From: Candidatus Omnitrophota bacterium
GTDB taxonomy: Bacteria > Omnitrophota > Gorgyraeia > Gygaellales > Profunditerraquicolaceae
Length of the DNA stretch: 64,000 bases
Assembly: GCA_050012075.1 (NCBI GenBank)
Contig: JBEKHW010000001.1
Span: 132,766 to 196,765 of the forward strand
Direction: 5' to 3'
In this document: piece after piece, positions 36,001 through 63,600 of the stretch
Numbering within the stretch: the stretch's first letter is position 1
How the letters are laid out: every line of letters starts with the position of its first letter
The notes under the pieces: generated by a model
Databases searched by the model: none
What the model saw: the letters and a program-made list of their open reading frames with translations, nothing else
What the model was told of the DNA's origin: nothing
Position numbers and translations under genes: made by a program

Positions 36001-39000
36001 TCTCCTTAAGGTTTATCAGGGCGTAAACCAAGGCTTCCTTGATATAAACGCTGAACTCCTCCGGAGACAGCTTCCATTCCCCCCTGTGATTATCTATCTG
36101 GGCAACAAACCGTTTCGGGCCGTAATGGCCTTGTACGACTATCTTTCTATATTTCCTGCCGGCAGAAATAAGCTGGAGATCGTCAGTTACAACAGTTAGC
36201 TCGGATAATCCCCAGGTGGACTTAATCTTTGCTATAATCTCTTCTTTAACTGAATATTCTTTTTTCAAGCAGCTGAGTATCCTGTTTGTCAAGGCTGAAT
36301 CAAATTCAACCAAGGAATCTAAGGGCTGAACATTCCAGCTATTGCCTTGAATGCTATACCTTAGAACAAACTGATCCGTCCCGACCGCACCTGATATTTC
36401 TGCTGCTGCTACTTGTCGCGAGCCTTTCTCGGCCATGAATCTTATATTTTCCTTGTCTATTACCGGCGCCTGGGTAGATACCGTAACCACGCGTTTCGGC
36501 GTTACGGCAGGGGCACTCGGAGTGACGTCTCCACTATTGCCCACCAATCCTTTATATAGCGGATCGTTGACCAAAAGTTGCAGGTAATCCTTATTCCCTA
36601 CTGCTACATTATTCTTTACTATCTGCGCTTCAAAATCAGAGATCTCTGCGGGGTTGCCATTGGCATCCAGCGAAGGCATCTCCTTATTAAACAAAGGCTC
36701 ATAATTCCTGCTTAACTCTTTCTCATTGATGCTTTCTATCGCTTCCTTGTTGAACGCTTTATCTTCAATCTGCAGTATCTGATAACCCTGACTGCTTAAG
36801 AATTCGTATATACTGCGCAGCCCATGCAGAACCTCGTGTATCTCGGCCTGCGATATTACAGGCACTACGACATCCCCATCTCCTTGCGTATATGTTTTAT
36901 CAATTGCGACTACCAAATAATATCCCGGTTTAGTAAAATATTGGGCTTGCCTATCTATCTTAATAAAACTAACCGCGCTTAAAGGCGCTTTTATTCCCAC
37001 CGCATTAACCTGGAATCCTTTTCCTCCGGTATTTATAGGCAGGATCTCCAAATTAAAGATAACAGACCCTGCTTTCTCTTCTTTATTCTTTAGGCTTAGA
37101 TATATTTTCTTACCGGTAAGAATACTTACGGCCAATCCTAAATTATATAGCCGATGCTCATTGCGAATGAATTTTCCGTCTTGCGCGAGCTTATCCAATC
37201 TGGCCTGAATGTGCCCATTAGCTGAATCCTGGACCTGTCCGGGGATTATTTTTAATACCTTCTTTTGCTTGGCGGAGCTAATATAAGATAGGAGCCGATT
37301 TTCTAACCCGCCAAACACTTCCTTGCCCGGCTCGGCATCCAGCGGCGCGCTCTTAGCGCTGCATATTTTATCAGCAAGATGCCTGAGGCGGTCTGGCTGG
37401 TTAATGTCAAGTAAAGGACCTTGGCGCTTAGACTGTGGCTCGCTCTCTTCGGATTGAGTTTCTGATGGATCTTCCATAATAGGATCCGGGTGCAAGGTTA
37501 AAGATTGCCTGGGGTCAGACGGTTCGTTTAATAGCGCTACCGCTTCTGTATCCGTTATCCTTTCCATCTCGCGCCTATGAGTATCTTCATCTATCATATT
37601 TTCTGTAAACAATCGGTCTACGATTTCCCTCTCCTGCCTCAAGCCTGAAGAATGATCATAGGCGCTTTCATGAGCCCAGGCGCAATAAAGCCGCAATGGA
37701 ACACCTTCCTTGGTCGGCCTTAAAATAAGGGCGGAGAATGTGGGTATGCCATCCACGCTACAGCCGTATGTCTGTTGAGCATTGACTTTTATCCTTCCGG
37801 TATCCGAAACAATCCGGAATTTGCATTGAACAGCGGACTCGCCTTTCCTGGTTATTGTCAACTTCGCAGGCAGGGCTAAGATTATATATAACCGGGGAGC
37901 TATCTTTATCATTCCTCCGCAATAACGCAAAATCTCATTCTTTGCCGCCAGGAGATAGTTAATATGCTTTTCTGTGTTTGTGGCGAGGACCTTCTTTCCG
38001 GCTTTGACGATATGGGCAACTGGCGTTTGCGTATCCATGCCTTCAATAGAAATATACTGCCCCTCCTGCATCGCCTGCCATAATGCCCGGCTCTCAAACT
38101 CGCCAAAAGTCCCGTCGCTGGAATAATCTGTTTGGCCAAATTCTGCTATTTTTATATCTATAAGTTCGCGGAGTTCATCTGATATCTGCATAAAGATATT
38201 CCCATGCTTTTCTTCCAAGCCAGACCAAAGCCGGGATATCGCCTTGGGGTCCTGACTGTATAACTTCTCCAAGCGAGCCCAATCAATATTCCCTGTATGC
38301 TCCTGTTGTATTATAAGTTGGAGCGCATATTTAAACGCGCTTTCCAGATTCGGCTTCTTTGCCGCTTTGTTCTTTCCCCGGCTTGTTTCTTTTTTAGCGG
38401 CCTTCGCTCCTTCTATAGGCCATGGTTCTTCTTCTCCGGTCAGCACCCTTATAATCCGTTTTATGATCAGGGAGTCCGGGGCAACTCTTGAGTGCGGATT
38501 TTGAATATATTCAAACGCTTTGACAATATGGCCCAAAGGATAGCCCGCGAAATTATCTCTCAATGCCTTTACCAATTCGGGTAGCTCGGAGAATCTCCCG
38601 TGAAAGCCAATCTGAAGCTCATGCATAAAGGTAAGGAATCTTTTTTCTTCTGTCTTTCCTTTTGTGGCGTCATATTCCTTGTTTAATTCCTCGGCTAACC
38701 CTTTAACTTCTTTTGAAGCTGCTTTCTGTAATCCGGCAATAACTTCAGGCGGCATAAATGCCCCTTGTAAGCGAGATAACCCTGTCTGTTCTGTTTCTTT
38801 ATCCGGGCCCATATGCCTATGCCTTCTCAGGGGGCTGGATGCCTTACCTTGCTTGGCTATCGGAAGATAGACCATAAAATAAGTCGTATTAATGCCCTTG
38901 ACAGTGCGGCAGACGACATTAATACTCCCTCCGTAAAGAGCTACGCAATGCCAGGCATTAGTAGTGCCGATACCTTTGCCTCCCTTCCTGGCGCTGACCC

Positions 39001-42000
39001 CTAAATCAAAGAGTTTCTTGCGTCCTGCCAGTACAATGGATGTCGGTTTCAGTAGATCCTCGGGAATGGGCTGGCCTTTATTGGAGACAATAGCAACAAT
39101 CCTGTCTTTTGTGCGCCTTAAAATGACCCTGACATCAAAAATACCTTCATCCCTCTCAAAGCTATCCGCCCAACCAACTGCATTGTCAACAAAGTCTGCG
39201 AAGGCACTGACCAGGTTCCACTTATCGCTTCTGACAAGAAGATGCGCATAAGAACCAAAATCCTTGGTTATCCTTGCGCGCTTACCGCAGGCAGACTGGA
39301 TAATACTGCCGATACGATGCCTTTCTTCTCCTATTAAACCGTTGACGAAATTCAGCCGGCTCTGTGAAATATCAATTGTCTCCTGAAGCGGTTTAAAAGC
39401 CCGTTTGAGCCGCCAGGTCAAGTCTTTATAATTCTTCAAGACATCTCTTTTTTGTTTGGCAAAACCGACTATACTTTCAAAAACCTCTATATGCCTCCTG
39501 GCTGTGCGCAGTTTAAGCCGCGGATCGGCTATGGCTGCTTGGGCAGCGCTATGGATATTAACAAATCTTTCCCTGAGCCGGTTTAACTCGTTAAGAAGCC
39601 TTTCCAGGTTGAAGTTGGGAGCTTTTTCCTGCAGCAGCTTTCTTTCTTTTATCTGGGAAAGCGTCAAGAACGTTATCGTCTTTCTGGAACGGTCTCTGCA
39701 ATCAAGGATAAGCTCAAGGCCATGGTCAATACTCCTTAAAGCAACAGCCATGCGCTCTTTTTCCACTGCCACACTTGCCTTTTTCAGTGCCAGCCATTCC
39801 CTGAAATCCCTCTTTTCTTTAACTGCCGGCCTTCCTGCCTTATTCAGGATGACTGATTGCCCGATAATGATCTCTTCAGGTCCGACTTCATCAACCAAGT
39901 TGGCAATCGCGTATAAGGAGCGTCCTTCCTTTTCAACCAAACCAAGGGCAGATAAGGCCTGAACAGCGCCCTTGACTTCTTCCTGCGCAAGCCCGAATGA
40001 ACGCGCCATGTATCGCACCGTGCCTGCCTGGCCATGGATGACTTTGCCCATAAACATTTTTGTTAGCAATTCAGTCGGGGTAAGCGGAGAACTGGCATAT
40101 TGCCGATGCTCAAGTACGGAGCCTTCTTCAACATGCTTCAGATTATTTCTTGGGCCCGACAGGAAGACATCCATATAACCGTATCTGGTTTTAATAATAC
40201 ATTCTTTTGACGGCACTCCATAAGATATCCCTTGGCTGACAACAGAGATAATTTCTCCTATGCGCGCCCTTCCGGAACCGCTGAAATCAGTCGGCTCAGC
40301 CCATAGGACGGATAAGTCAAAACCATTTATCTGCGTCCGGGCAGCCAAGCACGGTAGGTAATAAAAAGCGCGTATGCAGCGGGAAATGTCCTTCATCGGC
40401 TGGTGCCAATCAATATACAGGTGCTGTTTAAGTTCGCGCGCCCGGGCAGTCGGATGGGTTGGGCCCTTCTGCGGATAGAAAATATCTTCCCCGCGAATAA
40501 ATGCTTTAATAACGCGGTGCAGAAGTTCGGCGCTTACATAAGCAAGCCTTCTGGTCAAAGACAATGCTGTATCGCTTTCGGTTATGGATATACCGGTAAC
40601 CTGTCCTGCTATATCGCCTCTGTCATACTCTTCTGAAACCTTGTGCACGGTAATGCCGGTTTCCCGCAAACCATGTAATATAGCGCCTATAACAGGCGCG
40701 GCGCCCCGTAGCCTTGGTAAAACAGAAGGATGCACGTTCAAGAAGACTCTCCGAGGCATCTCTATCATTTCGCTATCGAACTTGTAGGGCCAGACAGCTG
40801 AAACCATTATATCCGGCTTAAATCCACTCAGCCTATCTTTAAGATATGGCGTGTGCGCTACTACTTCTATTAAGGGAATATGCCTGGCGCTGGCAACCCT
40901 GATAATGTTCCCGCTCTTTAGCCCTGTAACCACACAGCGGATAGGATAAGATTCCCTGATAAGCCCTTCCAATACAGCCATCCCAATGTAACCGCCTTCT
41001 GAAAAGAGGACCAGCGAAGGTTTCTGCCCTGTAACGGCAGGAGAAGAGGCACTCATAAGGTACTCAAATAGCTGAGGGCTCTTGCGCGCCATCATCTGGG
41101 TCAAATCAGCATTTACATACTCATAGACCTTTGAAGCCCCTTGCGGAACGCATTCATTGAAATCCGGCTCTTTAGATAAAAGCCTGTAAGCGAAGTGAAC
41201 AGCGATATCCCAGCATCGCGTCAGGCGGGCCGTCTCTTTCAAGGATATATCAAGATACCCAAAACCATAAAGGCTATTTTGCGAGGGATTCTGCAACTTC
41301 TTGCCCTGGTTACGGGCATATTCAATCTCTTCCCGAGGATATCCCGTAAGCCACTGAAAATATGCGAACCCATCCTGAGCTCTTTTTGGGTAATTCAAGA
41401 TATAATTGCCGATAATAAGGTTTATCTTCCTGCGTAATATTTCTACGCTATCACTGCTATCAGTCAGGATATCCCAATCCTGCGCAGGGAAAAACCCGAT
41501 CTCTTTTAAATACCTGGCTTCTTCTTTATGCATTCTTTCTATCAGGTCATACAAATTAACGACTTGCCCGCCTAAAAGCATGATGCCTAAAGAGCTGATT
41601 AGTTTATTCTCGAAGAGCTCCTTGGCGATATCCTCTCGCATAATATCATCGTCATGGGAGCTAAGGCAACCTGGTCTTAACCCCAGGAATACAAGCAGCA
41701 CACCCGGCCTTAAAAGTATCTTTCTGGATCGCGGGCTAAGCTGGCGGTAAATCTCCCTGACAATAGGAGCGCGCTCCAGTAATATCGCTTCCTCTTCAGC
41801 ACTTAGCATTGGAGGTATCCTTGCTGATATCGGGTCTTCATAACGCTCTCCTGTTACAAGCTCCTGTCTTTCTTCTAATATCCTTAACGCTTCTTTCTTC
41901 CTTAAAACTATGAATTCCGGCATGTATGTATCGGCAAATTCCTGCTGGACTCTGGCAAGCTCCTGTGGAGTAAAATATGCCTTCTTGATAGGCTGCCATT

Positions 42001-45000
42001 GCCTAAGATAATCGTCGTATTTTGCCACAAGGATGCGCCCTTCCCATTCTTTGCTGAATTGGCCTAATGCCGCGTCTACAACAACCTGCTCTTTGCCTTT
42101 AACAAGGGGATAGGAATGTTCGATCTCTCCTGCAATCACTGTTGATCCCTCTATTTTAACCTCGCTTGTTATCTCAAGGGTATTAAAGGCAGCGGAAAAA
42201 CAATTAGAGAATATCTGGCACACGCCACTGTCAGGCGCCTTTCGTGCACGTAAACGGCTGTATTCCATAACATCATTATTGTATAAGGTCTTGCGCAGGT
42301 CTTTTTCCTTCAAACACGATAACATCCTGAATATCTCTACCTCATGCCCTAACAGGCATCTTCTTGTTTCTGCGGCTGTAACAGGCTTTGCCTTCAGCGG
42401 CTCAAAAAGAGATACCAAATAAATCACTGTCGCAAGAAATGCCTCTCTGTATTCCTGCTCGCAGTTATTCCTCCTGCTTTTTAACGCCGCCTCTAAGACA
42501 GGATGTAAAGGCAGGATATTCTGGAAGGAATGCAATGCTTGTTCTGTTTCCGGATTATCCGGTAAATTAGAGCTGTCAGAGTTTACAGCAGCCATCTGTA
42601 TGCCTTTTAAGATATCTTGCGGTTTTACGGATTGGCGCCTTGTCTCTTGTTGTATCCATGAAGACAACTTGCCTGCTAAACGCATCTGTTTCACATTAAG
42701 CGGTTTTTGCCGCTGTGCCTGCTGCTTATTCTCTCTATTAATACCGTTATCAAAAATCGCCTGGATCTTCTGGTAAGGGTCAGAAGTGTTACTGCTATTC
42801 CCATCTGCAGGAGAAGAGGATGTTACACGCTTATAGCTTCCTTCCCTGACCACTAATTCTTCAAACTCTCCACCCAAGAGCGCTACGTCAACAATCGCCT
42901 CTAACGGTATCTCTACCCTTATAACCTCTCCGCCATCTTCTGCATGTTCCTTTGCGTATTCGATATGACGGGTAAAATAGGCAGGGTCTTTTAATTCTAT
43001 ATCGACCCCTTCAAAAAAGCCCTTCTGCTCCGAACCATGATATAGCCTAAACGCCCGGACATCGGGGAATTTATGCATTAAATACCAGGTGACCATCCTT
43101 TCGTATTCATGATGGCGTATCTGTATTGCATTTACTATTGTCCTTCTCTCTGTCTTCTTAAACTTCATGGCGTCAACCACGAAATATGGGCATTGCTGTA
43201 AGGCGGCTAAGCCAAGTTCGACTTTTTCTTCAAAGTTTAACTTTTCATCGATCCAATAACTGGATACATTAAATATACTGTAGCGCGTGCCCTTGACGGT
43301 TTTTTCAAGATCCAATTGCTTGCCCCTGAAAGGATCTATTCCTCCTTTTTTCTTTAGGGATTCTATTGCCTCCGATAATTCGGCCCTCCCGGTCTCTATG
43401 ACTTCGAATAACCTCATCACTGAATTAAAAATATGCGGCTCCGTAACAAGCTGTAACATGAAATAATTCCAGCGATGGGTTTCTATATTGAGAATATCGT
43501 CGCTCCAGTCATACCCTATTAATTCATCATCCAATCTCTTGGCAAGATGCTTTATCATGCTTATGAATTCTCGCCATGAATCCCCGAATTCCGCATCCAG
43601 CATAGCAAGCTTTGTAGCCCTCTCCCGGAATTGTTTCCTGCCTTTAAGCAAAACCCTAAAATCCTCGCCAGCCGGTGAACTGCCTTTATCAAACTTTGTA
43701 TTCTCGATTATGCCTGCGGTCCTCTGGCTGCCTCCCGAGCGCTCTTTATCCGATAGGGAAATAGTTATCAGGAACATATAACTGATGAACATCACATAGG
43801 CCAATTGCAAGCTAGGCGCATATTGCAATACAAAGTAGGTCAAAGGATGCGCAAAAAGGAAGATGGACCAGGCCTTAAGCGAATCCGCGTACACCCGCCC
43901 TTTCCATTCCGGGCTAAAAGGGGACAACTTTATCTTATGCCAATATGCCGAATCAAATAACCCCGTAAAGGTATGATACAGGAAGAAAAAGATAAAGGAT
44001 GTCCAGATGAACTGGTCAAATGCTATCTTAACCAAAGGATACAACCCTGCTGCCGGAATATATGCCTTAAGCATGCTATACATGAAACGTAGCAGAACCG
44101 CTGTTACTGCAAAAATAGGTATCCGGTAAGAAAGACGGTACCATAAAGGAGACACCTCTCCCGCATGGTCAGAAGTGCCTTTTATGCGGGACAAAGACCA
44201 GGCAGTAAGCTCGGTAAAAATACCCATGATGACAACGGTGATCAAAACGCTGACGGAATACGGGTATTTCTCGTCAATAAAGACCCTGAAGGCCTCAAGG
44301 GCCTGTGATACCGTTGAGAGGCCGAATATACCTAAAGACAAACCTGCCAATCCGGCTGCTATAAGCACAATAGTCAAATAATATTTCTTCTGCCAATTCT
44401 TCTTAACCTGCTCTTTATAATCACGGGCTACTTCTTTGAAAGATTTCCCGCAGATGAATGACAGCGCCAACACCCCTACTATTGTTATGGCTGCTGTTAC
44501 GCCTACGGCAACAGGTGCATTCAACAAGAAAGCGGCGATAGGAGAAGTTGACATATTCTGTAACCATGGCGCCAACAGGTTGACTCCCCAAATAGCAAAT
44601 ACACCGCTGCCTATAGCCAACAATTGTGTCCCCGACTCGCGTAAGAGGCGGTTATTCCTTTTTTCCGGCATAGCCGAGGTTGAAGCAGGAGAGCTGGATT
44701 TACCGCGGATACCGACATTGTTCCTGATTATTCTAAATAAGCGCCTCTTTGCTTTTTTGGAGCTGGCAATTAGAGTAGGCAACCTGGACGAGGGCTGCTG
44801 TAATAGTCCCCGGCTAAGAGGCAATAAAGAAGCGCCGTTAAAATCTGAAACCACTCCTCCTGCCTTAAATACAATAAACATGGAAGGAACTGCATCCCAG
44901 AGCTTTGGAGTACGATGAGTATAAGCGATCGGCATCGCAAAATTACTGCTCATTGCCACTTTAACCATATCAAAACCTTGGGTCAGCAAGGTTCTTGTAA

Positions 45001-45232: not shown

Positions 45233-45560
45233 TAGAGCGATTATAAAACCGTACTCATCTTTACCTTCCACAAAAGCCTTTGTCCCGTCAATAGGGTCAA
45301 TCACCCAGACGTATTCCGCCTCTCTTTTTGGCTCAATCCCTTCCAATTCCTCCTCTGCTATAATTCCATGCTCGGGGAATTCTTTTCTAATCAACCTGAT
45401 TGCCATCCGCTGAATTTCCTGATCGGCTTCGGTGACTATGCTGTAATCTACTTTTGCTCCCAACGACCTCTCTCCTAAAGACGATTTCTTATAATCACTC
45501 ATTATAATCTTTGCTTTTTGGGCTATTGTTCTGGCGATCTCGGCTGCCGCAGCCACAGAG
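44930..45560 (-). other. Inositol monophosphatase / FBPase (IMPase)-family unit, disrupted by the 45241-45360 shifted block
   Basis: 'SIVTEADQEIQRMAIRLIRKEFPEHG' in frame 1. 'IAEEELEG...EYVWVIDPIDGTKAFVEGKDEYGF' readable only in frame 0 (45241-45360). 'ALMRNGMPILALLYAPEW' again in frame 1. Confidence 0.55.
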
Positions 45561-54500: not shown

Positions 54501-57500
54501 TTCGCCTGGTATTTCTTAAACACCTTACCTATATTAAGTATGTATTCACCTAACAAAGGCACAAGCTCGTCCAAAGGAGTAAGGGATGTCCTGACTATTT
54601 CTTCGGTATCCAGGTCCCTTAACGCAAGGCGTCCTTTTTCATTCCAGGTCTTAAGATATGTTCCGGAGACTTCATATCCTTGCCTTGCGTCTATGTTCTC
54701 AAATATAATTCTCGTGGTGTAGATATCCCGTACCGTCAATGACTGGTTTGACTTACGCGTGGCCAGATGGGTAAGGGTGAGCTGGAAACCACTCATTGCA
54801 TCAATGTCTTTGAATATTATCTCTTTGGTTTTTACCGCTCTTAAGGTAAGATGGCCGCCTGCTTTACGCGTAGCCAGATGCGTAAGCGTCCACGCATAAT
54901 CCCATGTAGCGTCTATGCCGCAAGCTGCTTCCCCGTCCTGAAATACAGGGTTTTCTGCAGGGTCAAATAGCCATACGCGCTTGGATACGCCTTTGACAAG
55001 CTGATAGCCGGCTTCATTTCTCTCAATCTGCCTGACTTTTTCTTTGATTATATTTTCAAACTTCGCGATTAACGCCTCATCTGTAATTACAATCGCGGCA
55101 GGAGAAGAGCCGGCTTGCTTCGTTTTCTCAACACTAGGACGCCTATTCTGATCTTTAAAGGAAGCGGTTAAAATTGCGCCTAATAATAATACATAAAGCG
55201 CCATCCCTGTGGGCACTGCCCAAGATAGATAAGAACCGGCAGGAGGGCTTTCGTTCAACTTATCTTCTACCGCGATTTTGTACGCCTTAACGTCAAATAT
55301 CTTCTTATTGAAATTAACGTACATCGGCTCAAGCTCCGAAACCTGCTCCCAGGTATTGCCTCCTAAAATCCTATTTATCTCTTTATTGTCTCCGGTTAAA
55401 TACAGATATTCTAAAACCTTAAACCCTCTTATACGGGCTGCATCAATATCCTTTAATCCTGACCTTTCACCGATTTTTTCTGCAAGATAAATGACGGCTT
55501 CCTGCTGGCATGGATAGCAGGAGATATCCACAGAACTTAAGACCGAAGATAAATCACCATTTACAATCAGCGCTCTTTCAATCAGGGTGGTCATCCCCTC
55601 ATCCAGTATCTCGTTTTGGAACCCTGCGGCATTAATATGCAGGGCCTCGTGTAGATGAGTCCTCTTAATCCGTTCTGCAGAATCTTTTATCAATAACGGA
55701 TAAATGAATTCTTTACGGCTGACCCCGGGATAACTTCTGCCAGTGAGATTCTCTTCCGGCTTATCAATAAATACCGGCTGCGGCTTCTTGTATCTCAAAC
55801 CGAAAGATTCAATATATTTCCTGGCTATTTCATCGCCTTCCCTGACTATGTTATCTTCTAAAACAGAGGCAGGCCTTGAATTATTCCGAGCATAAACTGC
55901 GATATCAACTTTTTGCAGATTATAGAGCAGAAGAAATGCCGCGCCTATCTCAATCGCCAAGAGGGCAACGAGCAGCAAGGCGTTGGAAATTGGGCTGTCT
56001 TTTTTACCAGTTTTTGTCCGCGCAGCATCTGAGGGCACCGTTGCTGGGCTGCTAACTATTCCTGCTTGGTTTAACAGGCCAGGCTCCGCCCTATGGACTG
56101 CAGGCGCCTGGATTTCAACAAAGGTTTCTCCGGAATATGTGTAATTCGCCAGGAATCCTGTGATAGGTGGAGAGTTTTCAAGTATTTCCAGCCATTCAAT
56201 GAGCTGCCCCTGTAAAGCTCCTGACTCCGGCCCTATATAGGTAGACATATTGGTATCTTCATATATTGAGCCCACGTGAGCGGTTATGACAATAATGAGC
56301 GAATTGGATTCTTTCTTGAAGGCGGTTTCAACCGGTATTGCCGGGGTTGAGGAAGTTTTTGTGCAGACATTACAGCCTAAATCCTGCTGTTGACTATTTA
56401 CAAACGGCCCAACAGTAGCGGGCGAAGAACCGCCCCGCTCTGCTATCAGCCGCACAGCTTCGATTGCCGCGGGTGTAGCAATCTGTGTCCCCGGTAACGT
56501 TACGGTTGCTGCGCCAAATAAGCTCGCCTGATGCAGCGCCTCTTCTTCGCTTCCGCCTTTAGCTAACTTAAGCACAAACCCTGCGTTTGCGGAATCACCG
56601 GCTCCAACAGGGCTTACCACTCTAACCTTGATAGCCGGTTCTTTTATAACCCTACCATCCCGCAATACCAGTATCATTCCTTCTATATCCTGCTTTACCA
56701 GGACACCGCGTAAATTATATTTCTTTATGAGCTCGCGGGAATATTCCTCTATCTCATCCGCGTTTAATTTCTCTCTGGATAAAACACCTCCACTGGCAAA
56801 CCCCATTTGTTCCAATATCGTGATAAATTCTTCTTTATTAGGAGCGATTATATCAGAGGGCTCTTTTCTTTCTACTTGCGCCAACACTGCTTCTGTTTCT
56901 GCTTTGGTAGTGGACCCCCTCTGGAAGTCCAGAAGCGCCTGGATATTATGCCTATGAGCGATCTCTACGATAGATTTATAAATACGCGGCGTTTCGTCCG
57001 ATGCAATCTGCCCTCCTACGGTTGTCACCAGCCACTTACAATTGGGAGCGCCGGACAGCATCCTGTCAACTTCGTTTAATAAATTATCTGCGACCTCCGA
57101 GGAAATCACGCCTCCTAAACTAGTCATTCCGGCAATAAGCTCACCGCCTATAATATGGTTAATAAGTATCTTGTGCGCGGTTTGTGTGGGCACAAAAGAA
57201 GCTATGATATGCTCATTCGCTAATTTCCGGCAGCGCATATCAGCAATCTCGTCTCTTCCCTTAAATCCCACAAAAGCAATATATTCATTCTGATTTGACA
57301 CTGCCTTGGCTGTATTTGCCGCTCCCCCGCCTGCATCAAACTGAACATCAACCAATTCTAATGTGCCGTCGCCCTTATCCTTCCAAACAAAGGCAATATC
57401 CGCTGCTCCGCATATATTGACTCCCATAACCATCGTTTTATTTAATAAACCTTCTCCGGAGAACTCCGGTTCTCTAGTGTCGGGTGATTGCTCTTTCCTT

Positions 57501-57541
57501 AACTTGATAAACCTAATTGGCGCATCCGTTAACCTTGCCAT
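45332..57541 (-). CDS. Giant multidomain protein, fragment 2, in the same frame as fragment 1. Contains PfkB kinase-like, TM plus HExxH, multi-TM, mutarotase-like, tandem RpiB-like and CPBP protease-like units, more membrane blocks, and the N-terminal part of the IMPase-like unit. The start is unresolved. The first in-frame ATG is at 57539-57541, but a GSSPA junction motif (57662-57676) lies in-frame between the TAG and that ATG, so the frame probably does not really restart. Ends at TGA 45332-45334, which sits inside a +1-shifted block.
   Basis: Frame = 1 mod 3 verified at 57478, 57598, 56620, 56431, 56053, 55111, 53374, 52420, 51160, 50734, 50086, 49693, 48559, 47698 and 45613. Confidence 0.5.
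47100..47700 (-). other. Multi-TM membrane block
   Basis: 'EDIAKDILVPLLIIVLTIALVVSLLRF' (47641-47698, verified) plus further hydrophobic helices downstream. Confidence 0.35.
49750..50700 (-). other. CPBP-family (CAAX protease-like) intramembrane protease-like unit with extra TM helices
   Basis: 'IAGSLWAPIIEEVLFRG' EExxxR motif (50037-50086, verified), 'FAILSNAH', 'SITMHFLINL' HxxxN. Flanked by ASSPS (50720-50734) and GSSPA (49679-49693). Confidence 0.5.
50830..51700 (-). other. Tandem ribose-5-phosphate isomerase B (RpiB/LacAB)-like units
   Basis: 'KIAIGGDHGAFALKEKVKSELEKSGWVVLDQGTF...CTTGIGISIATNKFNNVRCALCHTV' (51121-51160, verified), preceded by a second partial RpiB-like copy. Confidence 0.6.
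51850..52700 (-). other. Aldose-1-epimerase / YeaD-type mutarotase-like unit
   Basis: 'GLPLPGGIPFMFPWTSRIHN' (52361-52420, verified) resembles the YeaD 'RGGIPICWPWFG' motif. Confidence 0.4.
52950..53350 (-). other. Multi-pass transmembrane block (about 4-6 helices)
   Basis: Consecutive hydrophobic ~20-aa segments in the frame translation, e.g. 'LIVSAVCLTALVTGAIGLSLFGI' and 'ATIFVTGLFLGVAMQGLIAGIG'. Preceded by ASSPA at 53360-53374. Confidence 0.4.
54720..54900 (-). repeat. Short tandem repeat (~90 nt x2) encoding 'TLTHLATRK...LTLR' peptide repeats
   Basis: 'cgcgtggccagatgggtaagggtgag' and 'cgcgtagccagatgcgtaagcgtcca' repeat on the + strand. Confidence 0.4.
55150..55990 (-). other. Membrane-anchored HExxH zinc-metallopeptidase-like unit
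   Basis: TM helix 'ISNALLLVALLAIEIGAAFLLLY' (55925-55990, verified). 'THLHEALHIN' HExxH (55630-55660, verified). Second hydrophobic helix 'SYLSWAVPTGMALYVLLLGAILTA' near 55150-55230. Confidence 0.4.
56440..57540 (-). other. PfkB-family sugar kinase-like unit (1-phosphofructokinase / tagatose-6-P kinase type)
   Basis: 'NKTMVMGVNICGA...GGGAANTAKAV' N-terminal glycine-rich motif and 'VVSPVGAGDSANAGFV' (56581-56620, verified). Followed by GGSSPATV at 56417-56431. Confidence 0.55.
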
Positions 57542-57697
57542 AATTCCATTTCTCTTGCTTACTTCCAGGCCCCTTACTGCCTTTGTTGCTATCTTTAAGG
57601 ACTCCGCGGTTATCGCTCCCTGCAAATATTCAGCCAGTTCTTTTTTAACAGTATCAACAATCTGCTGGAGAGCTTCCTGCCCGGGCACTGCTGCCGG

Positions 57698-60600
57698 GCT
57701 AGAAGCTTTCTTGCCGGCTTCTGCTAAAATATGGGCCGGGTTCATCGTAGCGATATCGGCCCCGGATGCAAGCAGCCGGTCAAGCAGGTTCTCGTTATCG
57801 GTAAATCCGATGATACGGATATCGTTACCCAGGATATCACGCACCTCTTGGGCTATGTAATGGCTGTCATCTACCAAAGCGCTCTGCTTGAGAGGAATAT
57901 TGTGTTTATTAAGCAAATCACCGATAGCGATGATCTTTTCCCTGCTAGAGGTGCCCCTTCTTTTCTCGTGAAATTCCCCAAAGAGAGGAATATTCTCCCA
58001 GATGGGCTGCGTCCTTTCCGGAATGTTGGATGTAGCCAGGAAGACTTTGATACCCCTCTGTTTTAAATCCAGGATCAATTCTTTAATGCCGGGGGTAAGC
58101 AGGCTCTCCGAATCAGTATCTAAAATCTTTTGCGTCCGCTGCCATCTTTCTTTTTCAAAAATATTCAGATATTCCGCGGGAGAAAGGAATTGCCTTGTGG
58201 ATTGGGATGCCTTGGCCTGCCTTATCAGATCACCTATCGCCCCTATTTCCGGTAGCCCCCGCGTATACTCATCATAATAAGCCCTGCCAGCCCTCAGATT
58301 TTGCTCTGTCCTCTCTAACTTCAGGATTTCAAGATATATCGTATCTACAAAGCAGTCCCGCGTCAGCCCTATATTAATGACAGTGCCGTCCATATCAAAA
58401 ACCACTGCCTTGAGATTACGGACCCATTCCGGAACAGCAAATGGAGCGGCCGGAGAAGAAGCACATTCTTCTTTGATTTGCTTCCATAATTCGTCTGCTT
58501 GCGCCTGGGTATGGCTGAAACCTAACTGCTCATTTAGGCATAACCTTGCAATGCTTATCTTACCCAGGCCTTTAATATCTATATACTTCGTTAAAATATC
58601 TCTATTAGTTTGGCCATCTTCAACTTTAAATGTTTCTCTCAGTATTTCTGTGATGAATTTTTCTTTCCCCTGTTCAGAGATAAGAGGCTTTCCCTTGAGA
58701 TTCTGAAATGCAGCTGCTCTTGTTTTAAAGGACAATTTTTCGGAAGAAATACCCTCGAACTGTTCTGCCCTATCACTCCCCTCCAAGGGTATCGTCATAC
58801 CGACATGTGCAGGTACAATCGTAGCAGGCAGGTTGCCATCGACTAACCTGTTGACTAATGCTTGTTTTGCTTCTTCTGGGGCGTGGACCAAGACAAGGTT
58901 CTTGGGATTTATCTTGCCGATAACGTACGCCAGGCCTCTTTGGTCGGCATGAGCCCTAAAGAGGAATTTCCTGACCTCGGCGTTTACCTGTATAATCGCT
59001 TCGCCTTCACCAGACGGAATAGCTATTTTCTTTCCCTTCTGAAGATTGAGGATCTGTGCCGCAGGGCTTTCTTCCGTGGCATAACCTACGAAAAAGATGG
59101 CATTAGCAGGATTACCGGCCATCTGCGTAAGATACAACAGGGAACAGCCTCCCACAAACATTCCTGAACCGGCAATTATAATATGCGGCTCTTTTAGTTC
59201 AAGAATCGACTTTCTTCTGTCGCGGCCTACCGCAATAATATTACTGCCATCCTCGAATAAATATTCTGAGCCACGTACACGGTATCTTTTGTAAAGCCCG
59301 GCCGTCCTTATCGCAAGGCCGTCAATATAGATATTGGCCTGAGGAATAATACCCTTTCGTTGATATTCCTGTAAAATAAGGGCTATCTCCGTTGACCTTC
59401 CTATCGCAAAAGCAGGGACCAGGATAGAGCCACCCCTGCGCAAAACCTCTGCTACCGAAGCGGCAAATTCTTCTTTTACGGATTGACGCGGCGGCAGATT
59501 TGCTTCTTTGCCATAAAGCGCCTCCATGATCAATAAGTCGATTTCTGCCGTAGATAGCCGCATAGAATCCACCGAATTCTGTTTTTTCACGGAAATATCC
59601 CCGGAATAAAAAATGTTACCGTAAGGAGTGGCTATGATTACCGAGGCTGCGCCAAGGATATGCCCGGCAGGAATAAAGAGCACCTTGATGTCTTCCGAAA
59701 GCCTGTACCATCTTCCAAAATCAACGTATCTAAAACGCTTTGAAATATCCGCAAACTCTTTTCTATTAAACTCATTAGTGAGTAAAATCCTGGCTAAGCC
59801 AAAAGTAGGAGCTGTAGCAAGTATCTTGGCATCCGGCAACTGCCTTGCTGCCTCTATCAGTGAGCCGGAATGGTCAAAATGGGCATGGGTAATGATTATA
59901 TGGCCTATCCGGCCTTCTACATTGCTTAGGTCAAGGGGCTCCAGGGTTTTGGGGTCTGCTCCGATATCTAAAAGCAACTTTTCGCCGGCAATATCTGCGA
60001 GAAATGCGCTCTTACCCGGCTCATCCACTCCGCCTAAAGGCGTTATCTTTATTTTATCTCTCTTCAAAGGAGATTCATCTTCAAGCAGCGCCCGGCACAA
60101 GCCATCATAAGATTCCTGCACGCTCCTATCATTCTCAAAGAAAGATTTTCCGGCCACAAACACATTGGCCCCTGCCTTGGCTGCCTTTCTTATGGTGAAA
60201 CGGTTAATGCCACCGTCTATTACAATATCTCCGTCAAAATGATACTCATTCCTTAATATCCCGATATTCCTTACCGCTATGCCTTGCTGGTCAAACTTCT
60301 GGCCGCCCCTGCCCGGATAAACGCTCATCTGCAATACTCTATCGATGTACTTACGGTTTTCCATGATGAACCTGCAAATAGCATGGATATCGGCTTCGGG
60401 GGATGGGTTTAGAGCAAGTGCGGCAATCCCGTCGTAGGCCTTAATCAACTTAAGGCAATCCAATAAGCGCCCTTTATCTTCAAACCCCTCCCGGTGCAGA
60501 GTAATCATCTTGGTTCTGAATAAGATATAGTCCCGCACCAGGCGCTCAAAGCTGCGGGAGATCGCCCGGCTATCTGCCATTACCATCAGGTGCGCATCAA

Positions 60601-63600
60601 ACATTGTGCCGGTATCAGCCTGCCGAATAATCCTCCATACCCCCCTCGGAGTCAATTCCTTTAAAGTATCTTGCGCATTTGCCTGGACTATGGCGCTGCC
60701 TACGCCATTATTGCTGTCTATTACATCTATGTGAATGATAACCGGAATGGGGCCTTTCTTTCCTATCTTTATTGCCTGAAGCGCTTTCTGGCGCCTATCT
60801 GCCTTTGGAACACTGAGCACCGACGGCTCAATGATAAATCTCTGGGCTGTCGGAGAACTTGCCTTGTAAAGAGCCGGAGCCGGTTGTCTTGGATATAATG
60901 AACCGGCCGCTACGGTGGACTTATTTAACTTTTCCAGCTGCGCCTGTGCAGCCGCGTAGTCCAATACATTGCCGCCTAAATTTAGTAGAAGATCGCGAAG
61001 GCGATTAGTATAAAAATGTATCCCAAGCGCGCCCAAAAGATTATTGACTTCTTCATGTATCAGGCCACCTGTAACAGCAATGAATTCATGTTTAATAATA
61101 TCTTCACTGCTCATCTTCTTTAATTTAGGAGAAAGCTTCATTGTCACAGAAGATAGATGTTTGCCCTGATGTTTTATGGAGGCTTCCATAAGCAATTCGT
61201 GAACCGCTATTAAAACAGGGTGGCCCTTTGCTTCTTCAGGAAGCGAGGCGGCGTTTCTCATTCTTTTTTGGATTTGATCTATTATCAAACCTTCATGTAC
61301 TATTATTGCTCTTCCCTGTGGATGGTTATACAAACCTTGCAGGCAAAGCGGCAATCTTTCAACGCCGCCTATCTCCTGAAGCATCTCTCCCGTTATCACG
61401 CAAGCACCGCAGTCAAATTTCTCACTTTTTGTTGTATATACCTGAACTCCTTTGGCGATCTCCGGTTTACTTATACCGTGCGTGATTCTCGCAATATCCT
61501 CTTCTAACTGCTTACGAAAATCCTCTACTATATCCAGGCCTTTTGTTAAAGATTCGACGGCATTACCATTAATTAAATCTTTTACCAAGTCCTTTACCTC
61601 TTCTCTATCTTTCCCATCTGCAGCGAAATCTAAGCCATCCTGCCCGGATTTACTTTCCAGATTATTACCGGCCGCTGCGGCAAACTTTGCCCCCACCAGC
61701 CACGGAGAGGATAGCAAAGTCTCTAAAATACGCCACAGCGGCCGGATTATTGAAAGCGCTTTCACTTTAAGCCGTAAAAATATGCTTACTGAATTATCAC
61801 AAGATAAAACGGGTGAAGCAGGTGAAGACCCGGCATAACCCGCAGCGCGGCCATTCATCGCAAACTCGGTAAGAACCGGGGCATCTTGCGCAAGATAGTC
61901 ATAAGAAGGCACGGGAGCTTTAGTCACAACATACTTTTCAATATTCAGGATAAAATCCCTCCATTCAGAACTGGCTTTTATAATCTCTCTTAAGAAGCCT
62001 TGCCAGGAGCTTCTTAAGCCATATTCCTTGGGGGTCACGTGTAGATGGCTCCAATACCGGCCTTGCTGGTCGTGTTCTCCGCCTACCATAGGACTCATCT
62101 GCCCCTTATGGAGGAGCCATTCCCGTAAATCAATCATCACCGGAACCCCAAAATAGGCTGCCAAGATTAACAGTTCAATAAATCCTTTGACCGGGCCTCC
62201 CAACGTTGCCAATGACCTCTCGTCATAGTTGGAAGGATAGATGAGCAGTTCCGGCATCCTGATAATGGCATATTTTAATGACTCAACTAAATATCTTCCG
62301 GCATCATTATTACCTTCAACCATTCTCCTGTAGTCGCCGTAAACATTAGGATAATAAACCTTTACTTCGACCCCGGCCTCTTTTGCCAGCCGCAGCAATT
62401 CTTTTCTGTCTGCCTCTTCATACGCCTCCATGATAAATTTAAATTTCTTGCCTTTTACGGAAGCAAATATCATGGACCAGGGCTCTGGCTGCTTTGCCAG
62501 ATAATCTGGGGAGAAATATGTGCCTAAGTTCCGTTTTAAAAGAAGGTGCGGCAGGTCAGCACGCGCTCCTATCGCACCTGAATTAATATGCTCCTGGATA
62601 GAAGTAATATAATATTCCATTACTTCCGTGTTAAAAGGATTGAGGAATACCTGGTCAACATTGGGGACCCCGGCGAATCCTACTAAATGTTTGACGTATA
62701 CCGGCCTGGGCTGCTGGCCATCCGCAACCCTTATCACGCAAGAGCCGCCGTTTTTACTGACTAAATCATCAACAAACCGCTGCTGCATGATTGCAGCAGC
62801 GCGCCTTCGGTACATCTCACCCTGTCTGGCATCTAATTCGGTATACATGGTCCAGCGATAATTTTTCTCCGTAATGGCGTCAGGGGATAACCACGGGATG
62901 AAATCAACAATAACGCCCATTCCTAATTCCGCGGCACGTCCGGTAAATGCCCGCAATGCCTGCCTAGGTTCATCTCCGTTACACAATTGAGGATCGATCT
63001 CCCGCATGCTATATATCGAAAAACTATTACCGTGACAGTCGGTTAATGTAATATCTCCTATCGTAGCTTTCTTGGTCAGATAATTGTTTACGGAGATGGT
63101 AGGGTAGTTCGGTTTTTCTCCGGTGAGGATATACTGCGCTGCGGCAGGAACCCGATGCAGCGATTTTGATATTAGTCCCTTCTTGTACAGATTATAAATA
63201 TAAACTTCTCCTACGCCGCTATCTGCCAATATAGGCAAAATCTCTTCGGCTTTATTGAAACTGTTTTCATAAATAACTGCCCCGCTCTTTGGATCGACCA
63301 CTGACCCGATATCAGCTAAGTTCATAGCAACCGTCAATTCCTTGATTTGATGGCCGTTGCTTAACGCCTGATCTTTTAAAGGAGATGATCCTACCTGGCT
63401 ATTTTGATGGGCTGCGGCAGAAAGAGAGCCCCCACCAGCCACGGAGAGGTAATCCTTTTCTACATTAATGTTTTTATTTCTATCTCTCTGCACAAAGCCA
63501 TTCTCCGAACTTGCCTTTACTGTCGTCGGCGAAGAGCCGTTTGAGTTATTTCCCTGGAAGACCGTGTTTCTAAGCACCTCCCATGTTAAACCTCCCTTAA

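What the first reader, a model, noticed from the sequence alone, without database searches (positions are those of the whole stretch)
38828..61831. Units between junction motifs match full-length stand-alone housekeeping enzymes (polyprotein-like architecture)
Segments delimited by the xSSPx motifs have the size and motif order of complete free-living proteins. The ~315-aa Fmt-like unit (40097-41035) has N-terminal Rossmann, 'HPSxLPRxRGAAP' and C-terminal domains. The IMPase-like unit is about 300 aa (44699-45598). The PfkB kinase-like unit is about 390 aa. RpiB-like, RPE-like, HAD-like and beta-CASP RNase-like units are likewise complete. No Met follows the junctions, so this is not simple concatenation of ORFs with starts. 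Unrelated metabolic, translation and RNA-decay enzymes fused in one frame behind a common junction peptide would be highly unusual. Candidate explanations are a processed polyprotein, massive gene fusion, or an artificial or chimeric sequence.
Basis: partly seen in the sequence, partly recalled or inferred. Interest (0 to 1): 0.85.

Follow-up and report, generated by a model that had tools for sequence, protein, structure and literature searches.

The report
SSP-delimited cassettes in a giant bacterial gene
The whole 64-kb window lies inside one stop-free giant gene of the kind known from Omnitrophota bacteria. In it, more than 40 protein-sized units, many of them complete enzymes, are separated by a sharply conserved Ser-Ser-Pro peptide that looks like an unreported processing or junction signal.

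Summary
One frame of the window has no stop codon in 21,333 codons and runs off both ends.

[GA]SSPA occurs 27 times against 0.04 expected. The codons at the motif vary, so selection acts on the peptide. The motif sits in linkers poor in bulky hydrophobic residues and cuts the protein into units with a median of 359 aa.

In the flagged region 8 of 17 units hold complete enzyme domains:
- RPE plus beta-CASP
- HAD
- PfkB
- aldose epimerase plus two RpiB
- CPBP protease
- IMPase
- formyltransferase
- GHKL ATPase

They are divergent superfamily members, not housekeeping orthologues.

A Candidatus Omnitrophota MAG contig, also wholly stop-free, carries the same motif (17 against 0.66 expected). A shared unit is bracketed by SSP at both ends in both ORFs, but not in a stand-alone homologue.

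Multi-enzyme giant genes in Omnitrophota are already published. The junction motif appears in none of the three papers I term-searched, and one of them says cleavage points are unknown.

Best reading: a giant multi-enzyme ORF built of SSP-bounded cassettes, with the motif probably a protease recognition site. Cleavage is inferred, not shown. Artefact and chimera are rejected.

The parts
2..64000 (-). One stop-free reading frame of 21,333 codons, open at both ends. It is an internal piece of a giant ORF longer than 64 kb. Residue i occupies window bases 64001-3i to 64003-3i.
   Evidence: 0 stops in this frame, 599-1,625 in the other five; no Rfam family and no tRNA.
61817..61831 (-). Junction motif AGSSPA (aa 724-728), the upstream limit of the flagged region. 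The 18 junctions inside the flagged region are at aa 725, 1048, 1848, 2100, 2525, 2650, 2965, 3544, 4424, 4771, 5149, 6131, 6436, 6774, 7062, 7652, 7970 and 8388.
   Evidence: coordinates of all 42 junctions are.
60860..61828 (-). Unit 3, 323 aa, no known family. It carries the element KVKALSIIRPL and SSPWLVG near its start.
   Evidence: 0 Pfam families.
58460..60859 (-). Unit 4, 800 aa. A ribulose-phosphate 3-epimerase domain is fused directly, with no junction, to a metallo-beta-lactamase / beta-CASP / RMMBL nuclease-type domain that keeps the HxHxDH motif.
   Evidence: aCPSF1 scores 221 bits against a 580 cut-off; the nearest proteins are stand-alone MBL proteins at about 30% identity.
57704..58459 (-). 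Unit 5, 252 aa, HAD-superfamily hydrolase.
   Evidence: PF00702, 44.3 bits.
56429..57703 (-). Unit 6, 425 aa. A PfkB-family sugar kinase preceded by an N-terminal extension of about 100 aa. The GAGD motif is present.
   Evidence: PF00294, 95.8 bits, profile 18-301 of 302.
56054..56428 (-). Unit 7, 125 aa, no known family.
55109..56053 (-). Unit 8, 315 aa. An N-terminal and a C-terminal hydrophobic helix flank a soluble part that contains HEALH. This is a speculative membrane-anchored metalloprotease.
   Evidence: Not confirmed: no Pfam, NCBIfam or PDB match, and the AF2 single-sequence model is poor (pLDDT 43).
53372..55108 (-). Unit 9, 579 aa, no known family.
50732..53371 (-). Unit 10, 880 aa. 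At least 4 hydrophobic helices are followed by an aldose 1-epimerase domain and two tandem RpiB/LacAB isomerase domains.
   Evidence: (RpiB, 168-178 bits over two stretches).
49691..50731 (-). Unit 11, 347 aa. A polytopic CPBP / Rce1-like intramembrane protease with the EExxxR motif. It is the only Pfam-recognised protease in the window.
   Evidence: PF02517, 48.2 bits.
48557..49690 (-). Unit 12, 378 aa, no known family.
45611..48556 (-). Unit 13, 982 aa. A polytopic membrane unit with no known family. It shares the KVKTLSIIRPL element with unit 3.
44696..45610 (-). Unit 14, 305 aa. A complete inositol-monophosphatase-fold enzyme that retains the EE, DPIDGT and WD metal-site motifs. Both flanking junctions lie in low-confidence linker 12-14 aa outside the fold.
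   Evidence: PF00459, 135.7 bits; pLDDT above 90 in the core, about 40 at the junctions; SuhB/IMPase structures, TM-score 0.79-0.90 per target.
43682..44695 (-). Unit 15, 338 aa. A polytopic membrane unit with no family above cut-off.
42818..43681 (-). Unit 16, 288 aa, an orphan family. It has homologues in the Omnitrophota ORF on L005 and in the stand-alone protein P0143. SSP brackets it at both ends here and in L005, but not in P0143.
41048..42817 (-). Unit 17, 590 aa, no known family.
40094..41047 (-). Unit 18, 318 aa. A formyltransferase with N- and C-terminal domains and the motif NVHPSVLPRLRGAAP. It is equally close to Fmt and to the ArnA formyltransferase domain.
   Evidence: (TIGR00460, 121.8 bits against a 201.5 cut-off).
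38840..40093 (-). Unit 19, 418 aa, with a C-terminal GHKL (HATPase_c) ATPase domain.
   Evidence: PF02518, 29.8 bits.
2..38842 (-). 23 more SSP-bounded units (aa 8388-21333). Their 23 junctions start with the one at aa 8388, which is also the downstream limit of the flagged region. Recognised content: TPR-like units, a GlnD-type nucleotidyltransferase, DUF6923 repeats, sigma-70 region 4 with an RNAP alpha-CTD-like domain, HTH arrays and an SNF2 helicase. There is also one near-cognate site, GNSPA, at 3338-3352.
61829..64000 (-). Upstream units (aa 1-724), with junctions at aa 156 and 205. No Pfam family.

Best explanation
The window is an internal 64-kb piece of one giant protein-coding gene on the minus strand. 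It belongs to the multi-enzyme class described from Candidatus Omnitrophota.

**Architecture.**
- The gene is a chain of at least 43 protein-sized cassettes with a median length of 359 aa.
- The cassettes include complete but highly divergent sugar-phosphate and nucleotide-sugar-type enzymes, polytopic membrane modules, DNA-binding and helicase modules, and many orphan modules.
- Each cassette is bounded by a crisp hexapeptide, [K/R]-[G/A]-S-S-P-A.
- The hexapeptide sits in a linker of about 30 aa that is poor in bulky hydrophobic residues.
- Cassettes duplicate and reshuffle together with their junctions.

**Proposed mechanism.**
- The motif is a sequence-specific recognition site for a processing protease.
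- The translation product is therefore a bacterial polyprotein cut into its cassettes.
- The recognised residues are the invariant S-S-P. My guess is that the cut falls after Pro (SSP|A/I/V).

**What is shown and what is inferred.**
- Shown: the ORF, the motif statistics, the completeness of the domains, the linker context, and conservation of the motif in a second Omnitrophota giant ORF.
- Inferred: the Omnitrophota origin of this window, cleavage itself, the position of the scissile bond, and the identity of the protease.
For: - **ORF.** No stop in 21,333 codons.
- **Motif enrichment.** [GA]SSPA occurs 27 times against 0.04 expected.
- **All-or-none motif.** There are almost no degenerate copies. 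That points to purifying selection on a recognised sequence, not a drifting linker.
- **Peptide-level selection.** Both Ser codon families and all four Pro codons are used at the motif.
- **Linker context.** The bulky-hydrophobic fraction is 0.24 next to the motif against 0.354 overall, about 5 SD. The AF2 model of the IMPase unit puts both junctions in low-pLDDT segments just outside a full SuhB-like fold.
- **Complete domains with catalytic motifs.**
- **Second example.** The Omnitrophota MAG contig L005 is also wholly stop-free and has 17 SSP against 0.66 expected.
- **Shared cassette boundaries.** Homologous unit 16 is bracketed by SSP at both ends in both ORFs, although they share only 29% identity. 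The non-giant homologue P0143 has no SSP there.
- **Third, weaker example.** The PfkB unit is followed by SSP in the window (9 aa after the end of the aligned region) and in the Omnitrophota fragment P0199 (32 aa after it).
- **Paralogous cassettes.** Units u22 and u41 share the same boundaries relative to SSP.
- **Control.** 27 ordinary Omnitrophota genes have 2 SSP against 0.87 expected.
- **Taxonomy.** Every named close homologue is 'Candidatus Omnitrophota'.
[quoted passage not shown] The 'multi-enzyme metabolic cluster' class is defined in bioRxiv 10.64898/2026.06.07.730766.
Against: - There is no direct evidence of cleavage.
- No protease of matching specificity was identified. The window holds only a CPBP intramembrane protease unit and an unconfirmed HExxH unit.
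- Some units contain two or three enzyme domains with no junction between them (units 4 and 10).
- One SSP, at aa 18790, lies inside a repeated HTH module rather than between modules.
- Other Omnitrophota giant fragments lack the motif or nearly so (P0138, P0196 and P0199). It is therefore not universal.
- The window contains no taxonomic marker, and its source genome was not found in any collection searched.
- Low pLDDT at the junctions partly reflects the lack of alignment depth there.
Confidence: 0.5

Rival explanations
1. The ORF and the cassettes are the same, but the protein stays as a single uncleaved membrane-threaded mega-enzyme. The SSP motif is then something other than a cleavage site. 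It could be a fixed hinge, a site of O-glycosylation or phosphorylation on Ser, a docking motif for a partner or chaperone, or a translational pause that lets each cassette fold before the next one emerges.
For: - Published work treats these giants as membrane-anchored surface or interface proteins and could not establish cleavage.
- Membrane units often show paired helices. Unit 8, for example, has one TM helix at each end, which would return the chain to the same side of the membrane.
- Several multi-domain units have no junction between their domains.
- No cognate protease was found.
- A Ser-Ser-Pro core with a basic residue upstream is also plausible as a modification site (my own knowledge, not tested).
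Against: - Simple linkers do not need an invariant tripeptide held by purifying selection across ORFs that share only 29% identity.
- In L005, and at three places in the window, motifs come in pairs that flank short spacers of 14-55 aa. That is typical of processing sites and hard to explain as a hinge.
- Many of these enzyme families normally work as homo-oligomers (established knowledge for RpiB, RPE and IMPase). That is awkward inside one chain of more than 21,000 aa.
Confidence: 0.4
2. The cassettes are expressed separately from one mRNA by internal initiation or reinitiation, or by RNA processing. The lack of stops would then be incidental, and the motif would be an RNA- or initiation-level signal.
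For: Units have the size of ordinary proteins. In a different giant protein, P0140, the recurring junction contains Met (D[DK]AM).
Against: - Met is not enriched after the junctions (6 against 5.2 expected).
- Motif codons are synonymously diverse, so there is no conserved RNA element.
- There are no Rfam families in the window.
- With no stop codon of any kind in 21,333 codons, ribosomes would read through every junction.
Confidence: 0.04
3. The sequence is an artefact: an assembly chimera, a synthetic concatenation of genes, or a run of ordinary genes misread because of stop-codon reassignment.
For: The source genome was not found in the GTDB representatives, JGI metagenomes or IMG/VR. Most units have no close relatives.
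Against: - All three stop codons are absent from one frame and abundant in the other five. Reassignment of one codon cannot explain this.
- Composition and codon usage are homogeneous across units.
- Junction codons vary in a natural way.
- An independent NCBI MAG contig has the same stop-free, SSP-punctuated design.
- The phenomenon is documented from complete long-read genomes.
Confidence: 0.02

Closest known systems
Omnitrophota giant ORFs: the 'multi-enzyme metabolic cluster' class (bioRxiv 10.64898/2026.06.07.730766) and the 'Archaeovorin' type (bioRxiv 10.1101/2023.11.21.568195). See also Seymour et al. 2023, PMC10066038.
   Same: - A single ORF of tens of kilobases.
- Many distinct Pfam families tiled along it, with none dominating.
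- Sugar-phosphate enzymes and kinases.
- Scattered TM helices.
- Mostly unannotatable sequence that diverges strongly between genomes.
- The nearest named homologues are from Omnitrophota.
- Cleavage into several products has been suggested.
   Different: - Term searches of those three papers found no recurrent junction or cleavage motif. The 2023 preprint says cleavage points are unknown, and the 2026 preprint returned no hits for motif, cleavage, linker or proteolysis.
- This window shows none of the Archaeovorin hallmark domains: GT5/GT1, NUDIX, glycoside hydrolase, SecA-DEAD or C39/S8 peptidase. Only part of the gene is visible, however.
- This window also carries sigma/HTH DNA-binding and SNF2 helicase cassettes.
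Viral polyproteins (picornavirus-, flavivirus- and potyvirus-type)
   Same: One long ORF with no internal starts or stops. Protein-sized units of unrelated function. A short conserved peptide at every unit boundary, in exposed linker. Occasional short spacer peptides between paired sites.
   Different: - This is a cellular bacterial context, and at more than 64 kb it is ten times larger or more.
- No viral hallmark genes were found, and there were no matches in IMG/VR.
- No cognate protease was identified, and cleavage has not been demonstrated.
- The cassettes include metabolic enzymes and polytopic membrane proteins.
Secreted multi-enzyme fusion proteins of 1-6 kaa from Omnitrophota, Elusimicrobiota and unassigned metagenome contigs (P0001, P0122, P0123, P0132, P0140, P0240)
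   Same: They hold the closest IMPase-type domains, at 31-40% identity, embedded among other sugar-phosphate enzymes such as His_Phos, HAD and PfkB.
   Different: - They are complete genes with a signal peptide and a stop codon (for example L004).
- They show no SSP enrichment.
- P0140 uses a different recurring junction, D[DK]AM.

Membership tests
Omnitrophota giant ORFs (Seymour 2023: longer than 20 kb) | An uninterrupted ORF longer than 20 kb. | tested here: met
   At least 63,999 nt without a stop, open at both ends.
Omnitrophota giant genes (West-Roberts 2023: longer than 90 kb) | A gene longer than 90,000 bp. | not testable with these tools
   The window truncates the ORF at both ends, and the source contig was not found.
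Omnitrophota giant ORFs | Encoded in an Omnitrophota genome. | tested here: inconclusive
   The window has no marker gene. All named top homologues are 'Candidatus Omnitrophota' (P0124, P0131, P0138, P0196, P0199). The only other SSP-type ORF found is in Omnitrophota MAG GCA_041650535.1.
Omnitrophota giant ORFs | Numerous transmembrane helices along the protein. | tested here: met
   About 30 hydrophobic segments of 19 aa with Kyte-Doolittle mean above 1.7, clustered in membrane units. This is a crude predictor.
'Multi-enzyme metabolic cluster' class (2026 preprint) | [quoted passage not shown] | tested here: met
   About 25 Pfam families lie above their cut-offs and none has more than two copies. 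They include RPE, RpiB, PfkB, HAD, IMPase and aldose epimerase.
'Archaeovorin' type (West-Roberts 2023) | A consistent set of glycosyltransferases, methyltransferases, glycoside hydrolases, peptidases and NUDIX, with SecA-DEAD and N-terminal C39/S8 peptidase domains. | tested here: inconclusive
   None of GT, GH, NUDIX, SecA or C39/S8 was found in the 21,333 aa visible; only a CPBP peptidase was. The N-terminus and the rest of the gene lie outside the window, so I do not file it as an Archaeovorin.
Processed polyprotein (viral type) | A conserved short peptide at the boundaries of the mature products. | tested here: met
   The motif [K/R][G/A]SSPA occurs at 42 boundaries, in linker context, and is conserved in a second giant ORF.
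Processed polyprotein (viral type) | A cognate protease encoded in cis or in the same genome. | tested here: inconclusive
   There is a CPBP/Rce1-like unit and an unconfirmed HExxH unit. Their specificity is unknown, and the rest of the gene and genome are unavailable.
Processed polyprotein (viral type) | Demonstrated cleavage into mature proteins. | not testable with these tools
   This needs proteomics or biochemistry.
Methionyl-tRNA formyltransferase (Fmt, TIGR00460) | A score above the equivalog cut-off, and greater similarity to Fmt than to other formyltransferases. | tested here: not met
   121.8 bits against a 201.5 cut-off. The Fmt (3tqq) and ArnA (1z7e) structures score the same, 81.8 bits each. 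The Pfam Formyl_trans_N and Formyl_trans_C domains are present. It is a formyltransferase-superfamily member, not demonstrably Fmt.
Inositol monophosphatase superfamily (PF00459) | A full-length fold with the metal-binding motifs. | tested here: met
   135.7 bits, profile positions 7-264 of 271. The EE, DPxDGT and WD columns are conserved. The AF2 model matches SuhB/IMPase structures with TM-score 0.79-0.90 per target. No NCBIfam equivalog cut-off is reached.
RpiB/LacAB sugar-phosphate isomerase (TIGR01120, PF02502) | A score above the curated cut-off. | tested here: met
   167.9 bits against 138.65, and 185.5 bits in Pfam. In both cases the score is summed over two tandem copies.
Beta-CASP ribonucleases (aCPSF1, RNase J) | The equivalog cut-off. 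| tested here: not met
   aCPSF1 scores 221 against 580, and RNase J 53.7 against 400. The Pfam MBL, Beta-Casp and RMMBL domains are present. The fold family is supported; an RNA-decay role is not established.

The most novel reading that the evidence does not exclude
Some Omnitrophota express dozens of otherwise independent proteins from one giant translation product. These include metabolic enzymes, polytopic membrane proteins, transcription-factor-like proteins and helicases. A dedicated protease that recognises [K/R]-x-S-S-P-[A/I/V] would cut the product into its parts. That would be a cellular, genome-scale use of the viral polyprotein strategy, in which cassettes with their cleavage sites serve as the unit of duplication and shuffling.
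Probability: 0.35. Interest if true: 0.85.

Novelty: new variant of a known kind. Interest (0 to 1): 0.62.

Why it matters
Whether the giant Omnitrophota proteins work as single molecules or are cut into many products is an open question. The authors of the main study say it is blocked by the lack of known cleavage points.

A crisp junction peptide that marks cassette boundaries, and that is conserved between two very divergent giant ORFs, has three uses:
- **Testable sites.** Existing metaproteomes can be re-searched for semi-specific termini at SSP. Motif presence can be correlated with protease families across genomes. Two-cassette constructs can be tested in vitro.
- **Splitting giants for analysis.** It is a rational way to cut giant proteins into units for structure prediction and annotation.
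- **An evolutionary model.** It suggests how these genes grow and reshuffle, cassette by cassette.

If cleavage is confirmed, this would be a polyprotein strategy used by a cell rather than a virus.

Tried and rejected
**Finding the source or close relatives.**
- The search for related loci on GTDB genomes found nothing, either with a protein query or with the unit-16 alignment.
- The JGI metagenome scan returned only three weak formyltransferase matches.
- The IMG/VR scan found nothing.

**Word-indexed protein searches.**
- A 2,257-aa query returned one protein, P0001, which is not a giant.
- Unit 4 returned only stand-alone MBL/beta-CASP proteins at about 30% identity.
- The unit-16 profile returned nothing.
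- Only the exhaustive phmmer search found the informative relatives.

**Surveying the motif database-wide.**
- I dropped longer variants. HMMER's local-entry penalty would cancel the score of a 6-residue motif.

**Identifying a protease.**
- Unit 8 (HEALH) has no Pfam, NCBIfam or PDB sequence match.
- Its single-sequence AF2 model is unusable (pLDDT 43).

**Explanations rejected.**
- Stop-codon reassignment: all three stop codons are absent from the frame.
- Chimerism: composition is homogeneous.
- Internal starts: Met is not enriched after junctions.
- An RNA-level signal: motif codons are synonymously diverse, and there are no Rfam hits.
- A C39 double-glycine site: position -2 is mostly K or R (18 of 42) with no Gly preference.
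- A signal-peptidase site: no hydrophobic region precedes the motif.

**Literature.**
- 'Bacterial polyprotein' and related searches gave nothing relevant.
- No giant-protein sequences are held in the supplements.

Full report
**What is in the sequence**

With the bacterial code the window shows almost no long ORFs on the plus strand. The minus-strand frame that begins at base 64000 has no TAA, TAG or TGA in 21,333 codons. The other five frames carry 599 to 1,625 stops each. The whole window is therefore an internal piece of one ORF longer than 64 kb, open at both ends. The plus strand is C- and T-rich throughout, as expected if the purine-rich coding strand is the minus strand. There are no Rfam families and no tRNAs.

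Positions 61831 and 38828 are the outer edges of the junctions at residues 724/725 and 8388.

**The junction motif**

- SSP occurs 44 times against 3.6 expected from composition.
- [GA]SSPA occurs 27 times against 0.04 expected, and no more than once in any of 200 shuffles.
- An unbiased k-mer enrichment ranks SSP and SSPA first.
- The logo is [K/R] at position -2 (18 of 42), G or A at -1 (36 of 42), invariant S-S-P, and A at +3 (32 of 42). The flanks carry little information.
- A position matrix gives a bimodal result. The 42 sites score at least 11.3. There is one near-cognate site (GNSPA, 11.5) and one weak one (SSTPA, 6.1), then nothing. The motif is kept intact or is absent.
- Both serine codon families and all four proline codons are used at the motif. 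Selection therefore acts on the peptide, not on DNA or RNA.
- The ten residues on either side are depleted in bulky hydrophobic residues, 0.24 against 0.354 overall. That is about five standard deviations below random positions.
- Met is not enriched downstream: 6 junctions against 5.2 expected.
- Inter-motif units have a median length of 359 aa, the size of an ordinary bacterial protein.

**The units in the flagged region (residues 725-8387, 17 units)**

- Ribulose-phosphate 3-epimerase together with MBL, beta-CASP and RMMBL domains. These share one unit, with no junction between them.
- HAD hydrolase.
- PfkB kinase.
- A membrane segment, then aldose 1-epimerase and two RpiB domains, all in one unit.
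- A CPBP / Rce1-like intramembrane protease.
- Inositol monophosphatase.
- Formyltransferase N- and C-terminal domains.
- A GHKL ATPase.

Nine of the 17 units match no family.

Signature motifs are retained. These are HxHxDH in the MBL domain, GAGD in PfkB, NVHPS...RGAAP in the formyltransferase, and EE, DPIDGT and WD in the IMPase.

I modelled the IMPase unit with 30-aa flanks, using 60 homologues as the alignment. The core is confident (pLDDT above 90) and matches full-length SuhB/IMPase structures with TM-scores of 0.79-0.90 per target. Both junctions fall in low-confidence segments 12-14 residues outside the fold. Part of that low confidence comes from the missing alignment depth in the flanks.

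The rest of the window continues in the same way. It holds TPR-like units, a GlnD-type nucleotidyltransferase, DUF6923 repeats, sigma-70 region 4 with an alpha-CTD-like domain, HTH arrays, an SNF2 helicase and many orphan units.

**'Housekeeping' is not supported**

Against NCBIfam, every equivalog match is far below its cut-off:
- Fmt: 121.8 against 201.5.
- aCPSF1: 221 against 580.
- 1-phosphofructokinase: 109 against 292.
- HisN: 119.5 against 275.

The only exception is RpiB, and its score is summed over two copies. The formyltransferase is exactly as similar to the ArnA sugar-nucleotide formyltransferase as to Fmt. These units are divergent paralogues with a sugar-phosphate and nucleotide-sugar theme. 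They are not the cell's translation or RNA-decay enzymes.

**Not an artefact**

- GC (0.38-0.49), GC3 and codon usage are homogeneous across units.
- Junction DNA differs at every site.
- The same design exists in an independent public assembly, described below.

**Relatives**

The source genome was not found in the GTDB representatives, JGI metagenomes or IMG/VR. Word-indexed protein searches found only stand-alone homologues at about 30% identity, or a single 2,071-aa fusion protein.

An exhaustive phmmer search with residues 6131-7061 was informative. The best IMPase matches are domains embedded in long multi-enzyme proteins. Every hit that carries a name is 'Candidatus Omnitrophota'.

The orphan unit 16 matched P0131. 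This protein lies on contig JBAZKY010000048.1 of Omnitrophota MAG GCA_041650535.1.
- That 9.7-kb contig is itself stop-free from end to end, 3,235 codons.
- It carries 17 SSP motifs against 0.66 expected, with consensus [K/R]-x-S-S-P-[I/V/A].
- Its units also hold single domains, a methyltransferase and a LOG-family domain.

In the alignment of unit 16, both giant ORFs have SSP at the N-terminal and the C-terminal boundary, although they share only 29% identity and have different neighbouring units. The non-giant homologue P0143 (990 aa, with a signal peptide, in an ordinary gene context) has no SSP at either boundary.

Further points in the same direction:
- A third Omnitrophota fragment, P0199, has its only SSP 32 residues after the end of the region that aligns with the window's PfkB domain. 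In the window the junction lies 9 residues after that point.
- Inside the window, the paralogous units u22 and u41 share the same boundaries relative to SSP.
- Twenty-seven ordinary genes from another Omnitrophota MAG show no enrichment, 2 SSP against 0.87 expected.
- Other Omnitrophota giant fragments (P0138, P0196) lack the motif. A 6,249-aa ENA protein, P0140, uses a different recurring junction, D[DK]AM.

SSP therefore marks one variant of a more general design.

**What it most likely is and how it works**

The following is shown:
- The window is part of a giant ORF built of protein-sized cassettes.
- The cassettes are delimited by a conserved hexapeptide in exposed linker.
- Cassettes and their junctions behave as the unit of duplication and reshuffling.
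- The affinities are to Omnitrophota.

The following is inferred. The motif is a recognition site for a processing protease, which would make the product a polyprotein. The arguments are:
- An invariant tripeptide is held by purifying selection while its flanks and even the neighbouring units change.
- There are almost no decayed copies.
- Paired sites flank short spacers of 14-55 aa, in L005 and at residues 156/205 and 14387/14442/14456 of the window.
- Many of these enzyme families normally act as homo-oligomers. This last point rests on established knowledge and was not tested here.

Position -1 differs between the two ORFs (G or A here, often I in L005), while S-S-P is invariant and +3 is small or aliphatic. 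I therefore guess that S-S-P is read on the non-primed side and that the cut follows Pro. This is speculation.

No cognate protease was identified. The window holds a CPBP intramembrane protease unit. It also holds a membrane-anchored HEALH unit that I could not confirm.

The main rival keeps everything except cleavage. In that reading the protein stays whole, and the motif is a hinge, a modification site, a docking site or a pausing site. I rate cleavage at about 0.45-0.5 and this rival at about 0.4. Separate expression by internal initiation, and artefact, are each unlikely.

**Comparison with what is known**

- West-Roberts et al. describe 46 genes longer than 90 kb. They note embedded glycolytic and other enzymes, and suggest cleavage by C39 or S8 peptidase domains. 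[quoted passage not shown]
- A 2026 preprint defines a 'multi-enzyme metabolic cluster' class of up to 147,155 aa. Term searches for cleavage, motif, linker, junction, fusion and proteolysis returned no hits in it.

The fused-enzyme architecture is therefore already known and is not an anomaly. The SSP junction peptide, its all-or-none conservation and its coincidence with cassette boundaries across divergent giants are not described in these three papers as far as term searches show. I checked by term search and by reading two sections of the 2023 preprint, not by reading every paper in full.

This window meets the description of the multi-enzyme class. It shows none of the Archaeovorin hallmark domains in the part that is visible, so I do not file it under that subtype.

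**Verdict**

Fusion and a polyprotein-like layout hold, artefact is rejected, 'housekeeping' is not supported, and 'highly unusual' is overstated.
- Novelty: a new variant of a known kind.
- Interest is moderate to high, because the motif turns the open question of whether giant proteins are cleaved into something directly testable.

Noticed in passing
window 22426-23281 (minus strand, aa about 13,575-13,860): A tandem array of about 8 copies of a 36-aa (108-nt) repeat, 'AG[KD]IAVEAVKN[KN]LPGIS..DV...I..C', at 78-86% DNA identity, inside one SSP-bounded unit. It is the only recent-looking DNA repeat in the window.
   Followed up: partly
P0140 (ENA, 6,249 aa, 41-kb contig): A different long multi-enzyme protein uses another recurring junction, 'D[DK]AM(T)'. 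It is often followed by the conserved linker 'LALSSSVDAAQPDVDAINAVYDAAM' and a TM helix. DDAM occurs 5 times against 0.07 expected. Lineage-specific junction peptides may be a general feature of these giants.
   Followed up: partly
P0001, P0122, P0123, P0130, P0132, P0135 (1.1-2.2 kaa; Logan, ENA and NCBI): A family of signal-peptide-bearing multi-enzyme fusion proteins holds the closest IMPase homologues. Most end in -AA (…YLAA, …YTAA, …LQAA, …DAAA). P0001, P0122 and P0135 also share an N-terminal domain with 'AQY[IV]FHE' and a conserved C-terminal domain of about 200 aa. The C-terminus resembles an ssrA-like tail or a sorting signal.
   Followed up: no
window about 61756 and about 48385 (aa 745-756 and 5202-5213); aa 764: Units 3 and 13 share the element 'KVK[AT]LSIIRPL' 20-55 aa after their junctions. 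Unit 3's 'SSPWLVG' recurs as '[ST]SPWLVG' in the Omnitrophota fragments P0199 and P0138. These are short conserved elements of unknown role.
   Followed up: partly
window 34421-35398 and 1013-2029 (units u22 and u41): Two TPR-like cassettes 11,000 residues apart are paralogues (31% identity over 284 aa) with the same boundaries relative to their SSP junctions.
   Followed up: partly
window 7634-10534 and 2870-7633 (units u38 and u39): An array of repeated HTH-containing modules of about 130 aa continues across the SSP site at aa 18790 (42% identity over 266 aa between the two units). This one junction lies inside a repeat module rather than between modules.
   Followed up: partly
L005 (GCA_041650535.1 contig JBAZKY010000048.1), ORF residues 1149-1202 and 1476-1527: In the second SSP-type ORF the motifs often come in pairs 17-53 aa apart. 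One spacer, 'FNT.RLINAQSPKTISLP.INT.KAPSITRLS.VVA.N.MA.ISSP', is itself repeated. This suggests excised spacer peptides or a composite junction.
   Followed up: no
window 58460-60859 (unit 4): After aCPSF1, the second-best NCBIfam match of the beta-CASP domain is the type VII CRISPR protein Cas14 (173 bits against an 800 cut-off). This is far below membership level, and I record it only as a similarity.
   Followed up: no
window 55109-56053 (unit 8): A soluble domain with an HEALH motif sits between an N-terminal and a C-terminal hydrophobic helix. It could be a membrane-anchored metalloprotease. No database match was found, and the single-sequence structure model failed.
   Followed up: partly
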